Below are positions 51,260 to 55,387 of a stretch of 64,000 nt of DNA, piece after piece. The DNA lies in the sequence record NC_054911.1. One strand, written 5' to 3'. The notes below the pieces were generated by a model. That model was given only the letters and a program-made list of their open reading frames with translations, was not told the origin of the DNA and did no database searches. Position numbers and translations under genes: made by a program. Position 1 is the first letter of the stretch. Each line of letters opens with the position of its first letter. Source of the stretch: Escherichia phage ECO4.

Positions 51260-51475
51260 TTAAGCCTTTTTATCAAGAACAGCATTCAGCTTGTTAGTAA
51301 TTTTATCCAGACGCTCATTGAACTCGCTAGAAGATAAGCCTTTTTCTGGAGAAATTAAGCTAATCACGAAAAATATAGCAATAAAAGGAATAAGAAAAAT
51401 AGCACCAACTGCCATAAACAGAAAGAATGTTACAGTTGTAAGAAAATCAGCTAAACCTTTACGAAATTTATACAT
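51260..51475 (-). CDS. Membrane protein (71 aa)
   Basis: TM helix FFLFMAVGAIFLIPFIAIFFVISLI. Confidence 0.55.
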   Translation of the reverse strand: MYKFRKGLADFLTTVTFFLFMAVGAIFLIPFIAIFFVISLISPEKGLSSSEFNERLDKITNKLNAVLDKKA

Positions 51476-51590
51476 ATTTTACCCTTAATTGATTAACCAA
51501 GCATTGATAAGCACTAAACTATATTGGGAATAAAATTCTGGACCAAAATGAAAAATCATATCATTTATAGTATCCATAATGTAATTCAAT

Positions 51591-52061
51591 TTAATCATGT
51601 TTCCACACCCCATCGGTATTTGACCAAAGTCGCTGATTATCTGATCCTCGCCACAGCTTTTTGGTCGGAAGATTTTTCTCATACTTCCCATCAATAATAA
51701 CATCAACATATTTAAGCATTTCTAGTTGTTTAATATCTTCAAACTTATATCCTGTCCACAACCAAATGCTTTTATTGGGATAAAGATTTTTAACTGTTTG
51801 AACGATGCAATGAATCACGTCTCTGTTATCAGGATAAAGAGGGTCACCTCCGGTTATAGTTAATCCTTCTATATAATCATTATTCAAACATTCAATTAAT
51901 TGTTCTAGTGTTTCACCAGTGAATGGAATACCATTTCTAGCATTCCATGTTGATTTATTATAACACCCTTCGCATTTATGCAAACAACCTGTAACGAAAA
52001 GAACGACCCTGCATCCAGGGCCATTAACAAAGCAGCACGGGTATATTCTGTCATAATTCAT
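51591..52061 (-). CDS. nrdG: Anaerobic ribonucleotide reductase activating protein NrdG (radical SAM)
   Basis: 156 aa from ATG 52061; CLHKCEGC iron-sulfur motif; ATG overlaps stop of upstream endonuclease ORF. Confidence 0.9.
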   Translation of the reverse strand: MNYDRIYPCCFVNGPGCRVVLFVTGCLHKCEGCYNKSTWNARNGIPFTGETLEQLIECLNNDYIEGLTITGGDPLYPDNRDVIHCIVQTVKNLYPNKSIWLWTGYKFEDIKQLEMLKYVDVIIDGKYEKNLPTKKLWRGSDNQRLWSNTDGVWKHD

Positions 52062-52888
52062 AATAATATCCAATTTTTCCAAGCTTCATCAGTAGAATTA
52101 CAGCGTTTTAGTATAAGATGTCTAGAAACTTTTATGGCATTTGAGCACTTTTTAATTGAATCATATTTAATACCGTCAACTGAAACGGTTTTGCTAATTG
52201 GAGAAATTTTTCCATACATTGGATTTTTTGAACCAACTTGAAGTCCTTTTAAAGCTTTTGAAAGCTTTTGTCTAGATTCCAATGACATGGGAGAATTCTT
52301 TTTACCTTCAATAATTCGCTTGCGATGAAGTTCGCGTTCTTCTTCACTCAAAGAATTGTAATATTTTTTAACACCGTTTGATATAGATAATTTATCTTTC
52401 TCAGACCGCTCTCCAGCTAATTTACTTCTAACATCTTTTCGCTTCATAGCTATGCTTACGGCTTTATTTAAATTTGCTTGATGCTCTGGCGTACGTTTAT
52501 ATTTCTTTAAAGCACGTGAAATAGCTATTTTAGTTTCTTCTGTTCTCTTTTTACCTTTATTTGCTAAACTATTTTTGCGGCGATGTTCAAGTGTCTGTTC
52601 ATAGGCAGTTCCACCTTTTCCACCAGGTTTAATATTATATGTATTTTCTTTTAGACAATACTCTTCGGTTACAAGTTCAGCTTCTTTATCATACATCTGT
52701 TTTTCATTATCAAAAACATGTAAAATTTCTTTATTAAAATTTTTTCTACCATATTTTAATAAAGCGGCACGAATCAATGTTCCTGACCCCATATAACCGT
52801 CATTTATGTTATCGGTGCTATGCGCACCGATATATTCCTTTGAATTAATTATATTTGTTATTTTATAAATTATATAATACCTATGCAT
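52058..52888 (-). mobile_element. Free-standing GIY-YIG homing endonuclease (276 aa) between nrdD and nrdG
   Basis: N-terminus YIIYKITNIINSKEYIGAH (GIY-YIG), NUMOD3-like repeats, C-terminal HTH-like VDGIKYDSIKKCSNAIKVSRHLILKRCNS resembling I-TevI architecture. Confidence 0.75.
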
Positions 52889-54698
52889 GTTTTACTCGTT
52901 TTACCATTTCTTTCATTTTACCTAAATTCCATGGAACAACGCTAGGAGTTCCAAGATATCCGCATGTTCTTCTTATTGTATTCATCTTTTTAGGATCAGT
53001 TTCTCCACAAATAGAACAAATAAATCCGCTTTCAGTAGGAGTCATTTCATGGGTGCTTCCGCATGTAAAACATTTATCTACTGGCATATTAACACCAAAA
53101 TAATCTAAATGTTGTGCAGCATAATCCCATACGGCCTCAAGACCCTTTAAGTTATTTTTCATATCAGGAAGTTCAACATAAGAAATGTGACCACCTGTCG
53201 CAATGAAATGATATGGTGCTTCTCGAGAAATCTTTTCAAACGGAGTAATATTTTCTTCTACTGAAACATGGAAACTGTTAGTGTACCAGCCTTTATCAGT
53301 AACATCCTTTACACTTCCATATTTTTCTGTATCAAGTTTACAGAAGCGATAACAAAGGTTTTCAGCAGGAGTCGAATATAAACTAAAAGCAAATCCAGTT
53401 CTTTCAGTCCACTGTTTAAGATGAGCATTCATTTTAGTTAAAATTTCTTGCCCGATATCACGTCCAACAAGAATATTCAATTCATGAATACCAATGTATC
53501 CTAGGGACACTGAACTTCTACCGTTTTTAAATAACTCAATTATGTCGTCATCAGGTTTAAGACGAACCCCGAATGCACCTTCTTGGTAAAGAATAGGAGC
53601 AACAGTCGCTTTAACTCCTTTTAAGGAACTAATTCTACACATCAAAGCTTCAAAACACAAATCCATACGTTCATTGAATAATTCAACAAATTTCTGTTCG
53701 TTAAATTGTGTTCCAATATAAGAATCTAATGCAATGCGAGGAAGATTCAGTGTTACAACACCAAGATTATTACGTCCATCAAGAATTTCATTACCAGTCG
53801 AATCTTTCCATACGCTCAAGAAACTACGGCAACCCATTGGAGAAACAGGAATAGATGAACCGGTGATAGCTTTATTATTCTTAACTGAAATAATATCAGG
53901 ATACATCCTTTTGCTTGCACACTCTAGAGCAAGCTGCTTAATATCATAGTTCGGATCGTCTTTATAAAGATTAACGCCTTCTTCAACGAACATAACAAGT
54001 TTAGGAAAAATAGGAGTTATCCCATCACGACCAAGACCTTTAATACGATTTTTCAGAATTGCTTTCTGAATCATTCGTTCAGTCCAGTCAGTTCCCGTAC
54101 CAAATGTAATTGTTACAAAGGGAGTCTGTCCGTTTGAACTAAAGAGAGTATTTACTTCATATTCATAAGCTTGGAATGCATCGTATACGTCTTTTTCTGT
54201 TTTAGATTGGGCATAATTCAGTGCATCGGCGATTTGCCATTTTTCTGCGTCCTCGATATGTTTTGCATAGGTGCGTTTAACATAAGGAGAAAGTACTTTA
54301 TCTACATTAGCAAAAGTCGTTCCGCCATATTGATGGGAAGCAACTTGCGCAGTAATTTGTGCCATAATTGCAGTAGCAACGCCAATTGATTTAGGAGTTT
54401 CAATCTGTGCATTACCAAGCTTAAATCCGTTTTCAAGCATTCCTTTTAAATCTACTAAACAACAATTAGTAAATGGAAGAGCAGGGGAATAATCAATATC
54501 ATGGAAATGAATAATTCCGCTTTCATGCGCTTTCATAATAAAAGACGGGACCATATTTTTGGCAATGTGTTTAGACACAATACCAGCCATAAGGTCCCGT
54601 TGAGTTGGAAAAACACGAGAATCTTTATTAGCATTCTCGTTTAAAAGGTCTTTATTAGTTTTATGAATCAATCCTTCAATTTCTTTTTCAATTGTCAT
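52881..54698 (-). CDS. nrdD: Anaerobic ribonucleoside-triphosphate reductase NrdD (class III), intronless
   Basis: 605 aa continuous ORF; C-terminal glycyl-radical motif RRTCGYLG. Confidence 0.95.
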   Translation of the reverse strand: MTIEKEIEGLIHKTNKDLLNENANKDSRVFPTQRDLMAGIVSKHIAKNMVPSFIMKAHESGIIHFHDIDYSPALPFTNCCLVDLKGMLENGFKLGNAQIETPKSIGVATAIMAQITAQVASHQYGGTTFANVDKVLSPYVKRTYAKHIEDAEKWQIADALNYAQSKTEKDVYDAFQAYEYEVNTLFSSNGQTPFVTITFGTGTDWTERMIQKAILKNRIKGLGRDGITPIFPKLVMFVEEGVNLYKDDPNYDIKQLALECASKRMYPDIISVKNNKAITGSSIPVSPMGCRSFLSVWKDSTGNEILDGRNNLGVVTLNLPRIALDSYIGTQFNEQKFVELFNERMDLCFEALMCRISSLKGVKATVAPILYQEGAFGVRLKPDDDIIELFKNGRSSVSLGYIGIHELNILVGRDIGQEILTKMNAHLKQWTERTGFAFSLYSTPAENLCYRFCKLDTEKYGSVKDVTDKGWYTNSFHVSVEENITPFEKISREAPYHFIATGGHISYVELPDMKNNLKGLEAVWDYAAQHLDYFGVNMPVDKCFTCGSTHEMTPTESGFICSICGETDPKKMNTIRRTCGYLGTPSVVPWNLGKMKEMVKRVKHA

Positions 54699-55168
54699 TT
54701 TAAACTCTTTCTAAGCTGCTTCTTAAATGAAGCTATTAATTGTGTTTTGGTGTCAAATTCATTATATTCAAATCCTCTTTGAAGCATCTCAGCCATCATT
54801 TCCTCTTTTCCTAAACGAGAAAATTCCTTTGATTTATCTCCAACGAAGTTAGGGTGAATATTATTTTGGGTGTAATCGGATTTTAAATAAGTAAGTAAAT
54901 TTTCTAACCATTCAAGATAATCAACACCCTGTCCCTTTAATCCAGAACGATTAAATTTATGCTTCATTTGACCTTCTGCAGCATTGCAGAGATTACAGAG
55001 CAATCCACGTACCTTTCCTGCTTTTGGTCCATTTAATTCATGGTCATGGTCAAGGTGATTAGCTTGAACATCAGGATTTAATTCTCGTTGGCAAATTAAG
55101 CATTTACCGTTTTGTGCATTATAAAATTTCTGTTTTTCTTCTTTATATAATTTGCCAGTCAATAACAT
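54695..55168 (-). CDS. 49: Endonuclease VII (Holliday junction resolvase) gp49
   Basis: 157 aa, zinc-binding CLICQ...CNLC, matches T4 endo VII. Confidence 0.9.
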   Translation of the reverse strand: MLLTGKLYKEEKQKFYNAQNGKCLICQRELNPDVQANHLDHDHELNGPKAGKVRGLLCNLCNAAEGQMKHKFNRSGLKGQGVDYLEWLENLLTYLKSDYTQNNIHPNFVGDKSKEFSRLGKEEMMAEMLQRGFEYNEFDTKTQLIASFKKQLRKSLK

Positions 55169-55175
55169 AATAAAA

Positions 55176-55198
55176 CCCTTACCTTAAATAGATAAGGG
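55176..55198 (-). promoter_or_regulatory. Hairpin (CCCTTA / TAAGGG) immediately upstream of the gene 49 start, embedding the SD
   Basis: Seen directly; T4 gene 49 translation is known to be modulated by an upstream hairpin. Confidence 0.4.
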
Positions 55199-55208
55199 TA
55201 TTTATTAT

Positions 55209-55256
55209 TTTCAAGTATTGTAAAACATTCGATGCAATCGCTTATATTGTCGAATC
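55209..55256 (-). repeat. Direct repeat copy A (48 bp)
   Basis: 45/48 identical to 55422..55469; covers the 3' end of the 58-aa ORF. Confidence 0.85.
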
Positions 55257-55387
55257 ATCTTTTTAGTAGGACGAGAATAGGTTCCTACGCAAGTGGTCAT
55301 ATGAGGGTCCGTAGAATGTCCTTTAATAAAAAGTTTCCAAACCTTACCGCCATTTAACTTTTCAGTATAAACCAATTCGGTTTTCAT
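55211..55387 (-). CDS. Small ORF (58 aa) whose last 13 aa duplicate the C-terminus of the downstream 161-aa protein
   Basis: Ends ...QYKRLHRMFYNT versus ...QYKRLNQMFYNT in the neighbour. Confidence 0.4.
   Translation of the reverse strand: MKTELVYTEKLNGGKVWKLFIKGHSTDPHMTTCVGTYSRPTKKMIRQYKRLHRMFYNT

What the first reader, a model, noticed from the sequence alone, without database searches (positions are those of the whole stretch)
52058..52888. Free-standing GIY-YIG homing endonuclease between intronless nrdD and nrdG
nrdD is one continuous 605-aa ORF with no intron here. A 276-aa GIY-YIG/NUMOD/HTH protein with I-TevI-like architecture sits between nrdD and nrdG instead. It overlaps the nrdD start by 8 nt and its stop overlaps the nrdG ATG (ATGA), so it is embedded in the operon. 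This looks like a mobile endonuclease poised to home into related phages.
Basis: partly seen in the sequence, partly recalled or inferred. Interest (0 to 1): 0.55.

Follow-up and report, generated by a model that had tools for sequence, protein, structure and literature searches.

The report
SegH homing endonuclease, already described

Summary
The 276-aa ORF at 52058-52888 is real, but on the minus strand. It lies between an intronless nrdD (52881-54698) and nrdG (51591-52061). Its TGA overlaps the nrdG ATG (ATGA).

The protein differs by one residue (I231T) from SegH of phage RB3 (GenBank AY262138.2) and is 97.8% identical to T6 SegH. Both sit at the same junction with the same overlaps. SegH was named by Sandegren, Nord and Sjöberg (NAR 2005).

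Domain evidence fits an I-TevI-like build: NUMOD3 above Pfam threshold, invariant GIY/YIG tyrosines, Glu69 and Asn85. For the predicted structure, the two best PDB matches are the I-TevI catalytic and DNA-binding domains.

The locus is polymorphic. T2 has an empty junction and T4 carries the unrelated HNH gene mobC. About 71 of about 730 related phage records carry segH.

Verdict: an ordinary, already known mobile endonuclease. One side observation stands out. segH comes with a diverged nrdD 3' tail and nrdG 5' patch, and four phage records combine these flanks with mobC.

The parts
52058..52888 (-). segH: 276-aa free-standing GIY-YIG homing endonuclease gene
   Evidence: ORF. 99.6% aa identity (only I231T) to RB3 SegH ABI48949 and 97.8% to T6 SegH. 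PHROG 314 'homing endonuclease' E 2.5e-60. TIGR01453 group I intron endonuclease E 2e-13, below its cutoff.
52613..52888 (-). N-terminal GIY-YIG catalytic domain (about aa 1-92)
   Evidence: Invariant Y8, Y19, G21, E69, Y84, N85, G89, G90 in alignment A1. The A1 profile hits only the I-TevI catalytic domain 1mk0/1ln0 in the PDB, residues 4-92, E 0.07. AF2 pLDDT is 92-98 over aa 1-90. Best Foldseek PDB match is 1mk0, prob 1.00, TM(target) 0.63.
52205..52291 (-). NUMOD3 motif (aa 200-228) within a helical linker (about aa 100-230) that holds further NUMOD3-like repeats
   Evidence: Pfam PF07460 E 5.3e-8, 33.1 bits against cutoff 20.4. The AF2 model shows serial helices over aa 100-213.
52070..52216 (-). 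C-terminal I-TevI-type DNA-binding (helix-turn-helix) domain, aa 225-273
   Evidence: Pfam PF20987 I-TevI_DNA-bd E 1.1e-4, 22.5 bits, below cutoff 27. Second-best Foldseek PDB match is 1i3j_A, the I-TevI DNA-binding domain on DNA, prob 1.00, TM(target) 0.41. pLDDT is 89-94 over aa 231-276.
52881..52888 (-). ATGCATAG: segH start codon nested in the last codons and stop of nrdD (8-nt overlap)
   Evidence: Sequence read. The arrangement is identical in T6 and RB3.
52058..52061 (-). ATGA: segH stop overlapping the nrdG start
   Evidence: Sequence read. T6 and RB3 annotations show the same overlap.
52881..54698 (-). nrdD, intronless, 605 aa (anaerobic ribonucleotide reductase large subunit)
   Evidence: T4 nrdD is split by the I-TevII-containing intron. 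No Rfam intron hit in the window.
52881..52958 (-). segH-linked diverged 3' tail of nrdD, just after the glycyl-radical motif RRTCGYLG
   Evidence: 31 mismatches in the last 78 nt against T2, compared with about 2 per 60 nt elsewhere; 0 mismatches against T6. The protein tail is TPSVVPWNLGKMKEMVKRVKHA* here and NPNERGFNLGKNKEIMHRVKHQ* in T2/T4.
51591..52061 (-). nrdG (activase), 156 aa
   Evidence: Pfam Fer4_12 E 2.3e-48 and Radical_SAM.
52014..52050 (-). segH-linked polymorphic patch at nrdG nt 12-48
   Evidence: 10 mismatches against T2 in the first 60 nt of nrdG, all within nt 12-48. T6 differs from the window at only one position within nt 12-48 and lacks the T2-type differences.

Best explanation
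The ORF is segH, a free-standing (not intron-encoded) GIY-YIG homing endonuclease gene of Tequatrovirus phages, inserted as a promoter-less cassette between nrdD and nrdG.

Inferred mechanism:
- Expression. segH is transcribed as part of the nrdD-nrdG message. It is translated at a low level by coupling or re-initiation, because its ATG lies inside the nrdD stop region. nrdG is in turn coupled to segH through ATGA.
- Protein. An N-terminal GIY-YIG nuclease domain is tethered by a helical NUMOD3 linker to a C-terminal I-TevI-like helix-turn-helix DNA-binding domain.
- Homing. In a mixed infection with a relative that lacks segH (a T2-type empty junction, or a T4-type mobC junction), SegH cuts near the nrdD/nrdG junction. 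Recombination-dependent repair then copies segH and its flanks from the segH+ genome.

Shown here: identity with SegH, domain composition, conserved catalytic residues, operon embedding, and presence/absence polymorphism among close relatives. Inferred, or taken from the literature and not tested here: cleavage, the position of the cut, and homing.
For: - Identity: one-residue difference (I231T, outside the catalytic domain) from RB3 SegH in AY262138.2, which is annotated 'SegH, homing endonuclease' between nrdD and nrdG. 97.8% identity to T6 segH with the same 8-nt and 4-nt overlaps.
- Literature: the SegH paper title is cited in held papers. [quoted passage not shown]
- Domains: NUMOD3 above threshold, I-TevI_DNA-bd and SegE_GIY-YIG below threshold. 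TIGR01453 E 2e-13.
- Relatives: of the 120 best of 603 homologues listed, many carry PF01541 or PF19835.
- Catalytic residues: invariant Y8, Y19, G21, E69, N85.
- Structure: the only PDB profile hits are the I-TevI catalytic domain. The AF2 model has pLDDT 84.8, and its top four Foldseek PDB hits are all I-TevI entries: the catalytic domain (three of the four) and the DNA-binding domain.
- Polymorphic locus: T2 is empty (nrdD TGA and nrdG ATG overlap) and T4 has mobC. SegH at 90% identity or more is in 71 records, MobC at 95% or more in 32, and nrdG at 80% coverage or more in 731.
- Flanks: substitution clusters tightly flank the insert.
- Expression: no sigma-70-like or T4 late promoter motif upstream of segH.
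Against: - No activity was or could be tested here.
- Pfam PF01541 (GIY-YIG) does not hit this protein at E <= 0.1, and the SegE_GIY-YIG and I-TevI_DNA-bd hits are below their gathering scores.
- Single-sequence phmmer against the PDB finds no I-TevI. The profile hit is weak, E 0.07.
- No clear equivalent of the catalytic Arg27 of I-TevI can be placed. That helix is replaced by a loop with invariant D30, Y32 and G34-S35-G36.
- The primary SegH paper is not in the held library, so its experimental claims rest on my recollection of the abstract.
Confidence: 0.93

Rival explanations
1. The gene is a decaying or inactive endonuclease relic. It would be retained only because it is wedged into the nrdD-nrdG operon: its loss would have to restore the nrdD stop and nrdG start precisely.
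For: Overlaps at both ends make clean deletion difficult. Pfam catalytic-domain hits are sub-threshold and no Arg27 equivalent can be placed.
Against: The ORF is intact and full length. Every residue that is invariant in a 40-member family alignment is kept. It differs by only 1 aa from RB3 SegH and 6 aa from T6 SegH across independent isolates, with 3 and 10 nt differences in 831 nt, so there is no sign of decay. The catalytic domain is predicted at pLDDT above 90.
Confidence: 0.04
2. The endonuclease has been co-opted mainly for competition between phages: marker exclusion or degradation of a co-infecting genome, or rivalry with MobC for the same site. This overlaps with the main explanation rather than excluding it.
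For: Two unrelated endonuclease genes (segH and mobC) alternate at one junction. Four records show mosaic phages that combine segH-type flanks with mobC. From memory of the 2005 abstract, SegH also cuts DNA of its own phage, which is atypical for homing enzymes.
Against: No data here separate exclusion from homing. The frequency (about 10% of related records) fits a selfish element as well as it fits a beneficial one.
Confidence: 0.1
3. It is a conserved non-nuclease gene resident at this locus in all T-even phages.
For: None found.
Against: T2 has no gene at the junction and T4 has an unrelated HNH gene there. Most nrdG-containing relatives list nrdD as the direct upstream neighbour.
Confidence: 0.005

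Closest known systems
SegH of phages RB3 and T6 (Sandegren, Nord, Sjöberg, Nucleic Acids Res 2005; GenBank AY262138.2, ABI48949; T6 AXN58115)
   Same: 276 aa, 99.6% and 97.8% identical. Same position between nrdD and nrdG, same ATGCATAG and ATGA overlaps, and the same diverged nrdD tail in T6.
   Different: One substitution (I231T) against RB3 and six against T6. The surrounding nrdD/nrdG DNA is about 97-98% identical to the best hits rather than identical.
I-TevI (T4 td intron endonuclease; PDB 1mk0, 1ln0, 1i3j)
   Same: Bipartite build: an N-terminal GIY-YIG catalytic domain, a linker, and a C-terminal helix-turn-helix DNA-binding domain. The four best PDB fold matches are all I-TevI entries covering both domains. 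The GIY and YIG tyrosines, Glu and the YN asparagine align.
   Different: Free-standing, not intron-encoded. About 25% identity only. No CxxC zinc finger in the linker: the protein has only C78, C248 and C260. The linker is longer and made of NUMOD3-like helices. The helix that carries Arg27 in I-TevI is replaced by a conserved loop.
T4 Seg proteins (SegA-G) and Pfam SegE_GIY-YIG (PF19835)
   Same: Free-standing GIY-YIG endonucleases in T-even intergenic or operon positions. Many homologues carry PF19835. T4 paralogues are about 30% identical over more than 90% of the length (H51).
   Different: Different insertion site and presumably a different target. The hit to PF19835 is below the gathering score for this protein. 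Several GenBank genomes mislabel this gene as segD.
MobC of T4 (HNH family)
   Same: Occupies the very same nrdD/nrdG junction as a promoter-less cassette overlapping nrdD.
   Different: Unrelated fold family (HNH), 210 aa. Its first seven codons duplicate the nrdG start, and it travels with a strongly diverged nrdG (81% identity to the window's nrdG).
SegH-like endonuclease of Slopekvirus Klebsiella phages (e.g. vB_KM5a1-KLB27 XNZ99814)
   Same: 47% identical over 94% of the length, and also directly downstream of nrdD.
   Different: Separated from nrdD by a 53-nt spacer. nrdG lies about 2 kb further downstream. Its NrdD tail is not of the segH type.

Membership tests
SegH (T-even free-standing endonuclease at nrdD/nrdG) | Near-identity to the deposited type sequence (RB3 SegH ABI48949) | tested here: met
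   275 of 276 residues identical, only I231T; 3 nt differences in 831.
SegH (T-even free-standing endonuclease at nrdD/nrdG) | Located between nrdD and nrdG on the same strand, in the place of T4 mobC | tested here: met
SegH (T-even free-standing endonuclease at nrdD/nrdG) | Site-specific DNA cleavage close to its own gene, and homing in mixed infections | not testable with these tools
   Reported in the 2005 paper according to my memory of its abstract. The paper is not held.
GIY-YIG nuclease superfamily | GIY and YIG motifs with their conserved tyrosines | tested here: met
   YIIY8 and Y19-I20-G21. Y8, Y19 and G21 are invariant in 40 sequences and align to I-TevI Y6 and Y17.
GIY-YIG nuclease superfamily | Catalytic Glu (I-TevI E75) and Asn (I-TevI N90) | tested here: met
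   E69 and N85 are invariant. The YN of SegH aligns with Y89-N90 of I-TevI. The Glu column is one position off in the HMM alignment.
GIY-YIG nuclease superfamily | Conserved catalytic Arg (I-TevI R27) | tested here: inconclusive
   The R27-bearing segment of I-TevI is an insertion relative to the SegH-family profile. There is no invariant Arg in A1, and R40 is K, R or another residue in relatives. The model has a loop at aa 26-36 where I-TevI has a helix.
GIY-YIG nuclease superfamily | GIY-YIG alpha/beta fold | tested here: met
   pLDDT is above 90 for aa 1-90. Best PDB match is 1mk0, prob 1.00, TM(target) 0.63, E 5e-3.
GIY-YIG nuclease superfamily | Match to Pfam PF01541 at gathering score | tested here: not met
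   No PF01541 hit at E <= 0.1. PF19835 scores 18.6 bits against cutoff 25. Many homologues do carry PF01541 or PF19835.
I-TevI-type modular architecture | NUMOD3 or linker DNA-binding modules | tested here: met
   PF07460 scores 33.1 bits against cutoff 20.4.
I-TevI-type modular architecture | C-terminal helix-turn-helix DNA-binding domain | tested here: inconclusive
   PF20987 scores 22.5 bits, below cutoff 27. Foldseek 1i3j_A has prob 1.00, but TM(target) is only 0.41 and rmsd 7.4.
I-TevI-type modular architecture | Zinc finger in the linker | tested here: not met
   There are only three cysteines (C78, C248, C260) and no CxxC pairs (translation).
I-TevI-type modular architecture | [quoted passage not shown] | tested here: not met
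   No Rfam family reaches threshold in the window. The ORF directly abuts two coding genes.
Free-standing homing endonuclease gene (as a class) | Presence/absence polymorphism at a fixed site among close relatives, with otherwise collinear flanks | tested here: met
   T2 empty, T4 mobC, T6 and RB3 segH. 71 of about 731 records carry segH.

The most novel reading that the evidence does not exclude
The segH cassette may be more than the ORF. It may travel with a replacement coding tail for NrdD (22 codons directly after the glycyl-radical motif) and a recoded nrdG start. These flanks could act as cleavage-resistant alleles in a contest between SegH and MobC for one junction. The mosaic phages (segH-type flanks around mobC, joined at the 9-mer ATGCATAGG that is both the segH start and codons of the T2/T4 nrdD tail) would then record the replacement of one endonuclease gene by another. 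I cannot tell whether the 2005 paper already covers this.
Probability: 0.12. Interest if true: 0.35.

Novelty: already known. Interest (0 to 1): 0.1.

Why it matters
It adds nothing new to biology. SegH, its position, and (from my memory of the 2005 abstract) its activity and homing were published in 2005. The gene is present in about 70 sequenced T-even-like phages, including T6 and RB3.

The practical value is in annotation. The gene should be called segH, not segD or 'hypothetical protein' as in several GenBank genomes. Its start should be placed at the ATG that overlaps the nrdD stop.

The flanking mosaicism is a small, possibly useful data point on how rival endonuclease genes replace each other at a shared site.

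Tried and rejected
- Primary paper: I tried to read the SegH paper by PMC id and by DOI. It is not held. Searches of citing papers found SegH only in reference lists. The position of the SegH cut site could therefore not be compared with the polymorphic patches.
- Single-sequence search against PDB sequences gave only noise. A family profile and a predicted structure were needed to reach I-TevI.
- Origin of the diverged nrdD tail: I tested whether it was imported together with segH from a Slopekvirus-like donor. It was not. The KLB27 tail is no closer to the segH-type tail (37/69 nt) than T2 is (40/69 nt).
- Promoters: I looked for a dedicated promoter. There is no T4 late TATAAATA motif in 51400-55300. 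The one TGCTTTA inside segH has a -10-like element too close to be a credible MotA-type promoter (my judgement). The sigma-70 scan found fewer sites than in shuffles.
- Paralogues: I looked for further Seg-family genes in the window with an HMM of alignment A1 and found none.
- I considered and rejected a chance ORF, a conserved resident gene, and an intron-encoded ORF.

Full report
**Observation.** The ORF list and the minus-strand sequence show four co-oriented minus-strand genes:
- gene 49 (endonuclease VII), 54695-55168
- nrdD, 52881-54698, 605 aa
- the ORF in question, 52058-52888, 276 aa, ATG start
- nrdG, 51591-52061, 156 aa

nrdD matches Pfam NRDD end to end (1-562/562, E 2.4e-171) and Gly_radical. 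nrdG matches Fer4_12 and Radical_SAM. No Rfam family, and hence no group I intron, reaches threshold anywhere in the 64-kb window. nrdD is therefore intronless here, unlike T4, where it is split around the I-TevII ORF.

The ORF's ATG lies in ...AAA CAT GCA TAG, so it overlaps the nrdD stop by 8 nt.

**Identity.** tblastn against 50,697 phage records finds the protein at 99.6% identity in GenBank AY262138.2. That record reads 'Bacteriophage RB3 NrdD gene, partial; SegH (segH) gene, complete; NrdG gene, partial', and the product is annotated 'SegH, homing endonuclease'. The only difference is I231T. T6 SegH differs at six positions. In T6 the gene lies between nrdD and nrdG with the same 8-nt and 4-nt overlaps.

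[quoted passage not shown] Held papers cite it. The paper itself is not in the library. From my memory of its abstract, SegH showed endonuclease activity with specificity close to its own gene, could also cut DNA of its own phage, and homed between phages in mixed infections. I could not verify this here.

The Edgell review lists mobC as the T4 occupant of the nrdG/nrdD site. [quoted passage not shown]

**Domains and catalytic residues.**
- Pfam: NUMOD3 is above threshold (aa 200-228). I-TevI_DNA-bd (aa 225-273) and SegE_GIY-YIG (aa 32-83) are below their gathering scores. PF01541 does not hit.
- Other libraries: TIGR01453 'group I intron endonuclease' covers aa 7-274 at E 2e-13, just under its cutoff. 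PHROG 314 'homing endonuclease' gives E 2.5e-60.
- Homologues: 603 were found, and of the 120 best that are listed many carry PF01541 and/or PF19835.
- A 40-sequence alignment has invariant Y8 (GIY), Y19 and G21 (YIG), E69, Y84-N85 and G89-G90.
- A profile of that alignment hits only the I-TevI catalytic domain in the PDB (1mk0, 1ln0; residues 4-92; E 0.07-0.2). A single-sequence search found nothing meaningful.
- An AlphaFold2 model (mean pLDDT 84.8; above 90 for aa 1-90 and aa 241-270) gives, as its four best PDB matches, the I-TevI catalytic domain (1mk0 and both chains of 1ln0; prob 0.99-1.00; TM on target 0.59-0.63) and the I-TevI DNA-binding domain on DNA (1i3j_A; prob 1.00; TM on target 0.41). 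Every later match has E >= 1.

Differences from I-TevI:
- There is no zinc finger; the protein has only three scattered cysteines.
- The linker is longer and made of NUMOD3-like helices.
- The helix that carries catalytic Arg27 in I-TevI is replaced by a loop with invariant D30, Y32 and G34-S35-G36, so the Arg equivalent is unresolved.

**Is it a mobile insert or a resident gene?** In T2, nrdD and nrdG abut directly (ATGA overlap) with nothing between them. In T4 the same junction holds mobC, an unrelated 210-aa HNH protein.

Across the phage collection:
- nrdG is found at 80% coverage or more in 731 records.
- SegH at 90% identity or more is in 71 records.
- MobC at 95% identity or more is in 32 records.
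- In a spread sample of nrdG hits, most list nrdD as the immediate neighbour.

This presence/absence pattern at a fixed site is what defines a free-standing homing endonuclease gene. It also refutes the 'conserved resident gene' alternative. segH can co-occur with the nrdD intron in some phages, where the match is split into two pieces with an extra 'homing endonuclease' annotated. The two elements are therefore independent.

**Likely mode of action.** No sigma-70-like promoter, T4 late TATAAATA motif or credible MotA-type site precedes segH, and there is no intergenic space. Like the promoter-less T4 cassettes described in the review, segH is most likely transcribed with nrdD. It would then be translated at a low level by re-initiation at the ATG nested in the nrdD stop region, and nrdG would be coupled to segH by ATGA.

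The protein would bind through its C-terminal domain and NUMOD3 linker and cut with the GIY-YIG domain near the nrdD/nrdG junction of a co-infecting segH-less phage. Repair from the segH+ genome would then copy segH and its flanks. These steps are inferred from family knowledge and from the literature, not shown here.

**Flanks (side observation).** Against T2, the window's nrdD has about 0-6 mismatches per 60 nt along the gene but 31 in the last 78 nt. nrdG has 10 mismatches within nt 12-48. T6 (segH+) matches the window over the nrdD tail (0 mismatches in the last 78 nt) and differs from it at only one position within nrdG nt 12-48. The NrdD tail directly after the glycyl-radical motif RRTCGYLG reads TPSVVPWNLGKMKEMVKRVKHA* in segH+ phages and NPNERGFNLGKNKEIMHRVKHQ* in T2 and T4.

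The tail is not strictly tied to segH. Four records (BCPShso_001, BCPEco_001, ELT1, BEU50) share one mosaic arrangement:
- the segH-type tail, ending ...AAAACATGCATAG
- a 12-nt relic of the T4-type nrdD end (GGTTAAACACCA)
- mobC, 99% identical to T4 MobC
- an nrdG whose first 60 nt or so are segH-type and whose remainder is T4-type

The join lies at the 9-mer ATGCATAGG, which is both the segH start (MHR) and codons MHR of the T2/T4 nrdD tail.

A 47%-identical SegH-like gene in Slopekvirus Klebsiella phages also sits directly downstream of nrdD. Its NrdD tail is not of the segH type, so the tail was not simply imported from that lineage.

**Verdict.** The element is the already described SegH, so interest is low. 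The only mildly new material is the mosaic of flanks with mobC, which may or may not be covered by the 2005 paper.

Noticed in passing
window 52881-52958 and 52014-52050 (minus strand): segH+ phages carry a recoded NrdD C-terminal tail (22 codons right after the glycyl-radical motif; 31 mismatches in 78 nt against T2) and a cluster of 10 substitutions in nrdG nt 12-48. The rest of both genes is about 95-97% identical to T2.
   Followed up: partly
L005:2500-3720, L006:2500-3720, L009:1300-2100, L010:1300-2520: Four phage records (BCPShso_001, ELT1, BEU50, BCPEco_001) are mosaics. They hold the segH-type nrdD tail, a 12-nt relic of the T4-type nrdD end, mobC, then an nrdG whose first 60 nt or so are segH-type and the rest T4-type. 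All share one junction at the 9-mer ATGCATAGG.
   Followed up: partly
L004:3879-3899 versus L004:4501-4521: The first seven codons of T4 mobC (MNYDRIY) duplicate the start of nrdG, as if the cassette had captured the nrdG translation start.
   Followed up: no
L007:2959-3810: Slopekvirus Klebsiella phages have a 47%-identical SegH-like gene directly downstream of nrdD, with nrdG about 2 kb further on. This suggests the lineage is associated with the nrdD 3' end rather than with nrdG.
   Followed up: partly
L008:22408-23609 (ACG-C40); RB3, RB5, RB6, RB7, RB9 and RB10 complete genomes: Several GenBank genomes label this gene 'segD' or 'SegD'. ACG-C40 also annotates shortened versions of it (735 nt) and of nrdG (393 nt), missing the overlapping starts.
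   Followed up: no
window 52810-52832: A perfect 9-bp inverted repeat (TATCGGTGC / GCACCGATA, 5-nt loop) lies inside segH codons 19-27, which encode the YIG motif. It is also present in T6. It could be chance.
   Followed up: no
window 52002-52025 (minus strand): A terminator-like hairpin followed by a T-rich run lies inside the 5' coding region of nrdG (NGPGCRVVLFV). The same stretch is nearly the same in T2 and less so in T4, so it may only reflect coding constraint.
   Followed up: no
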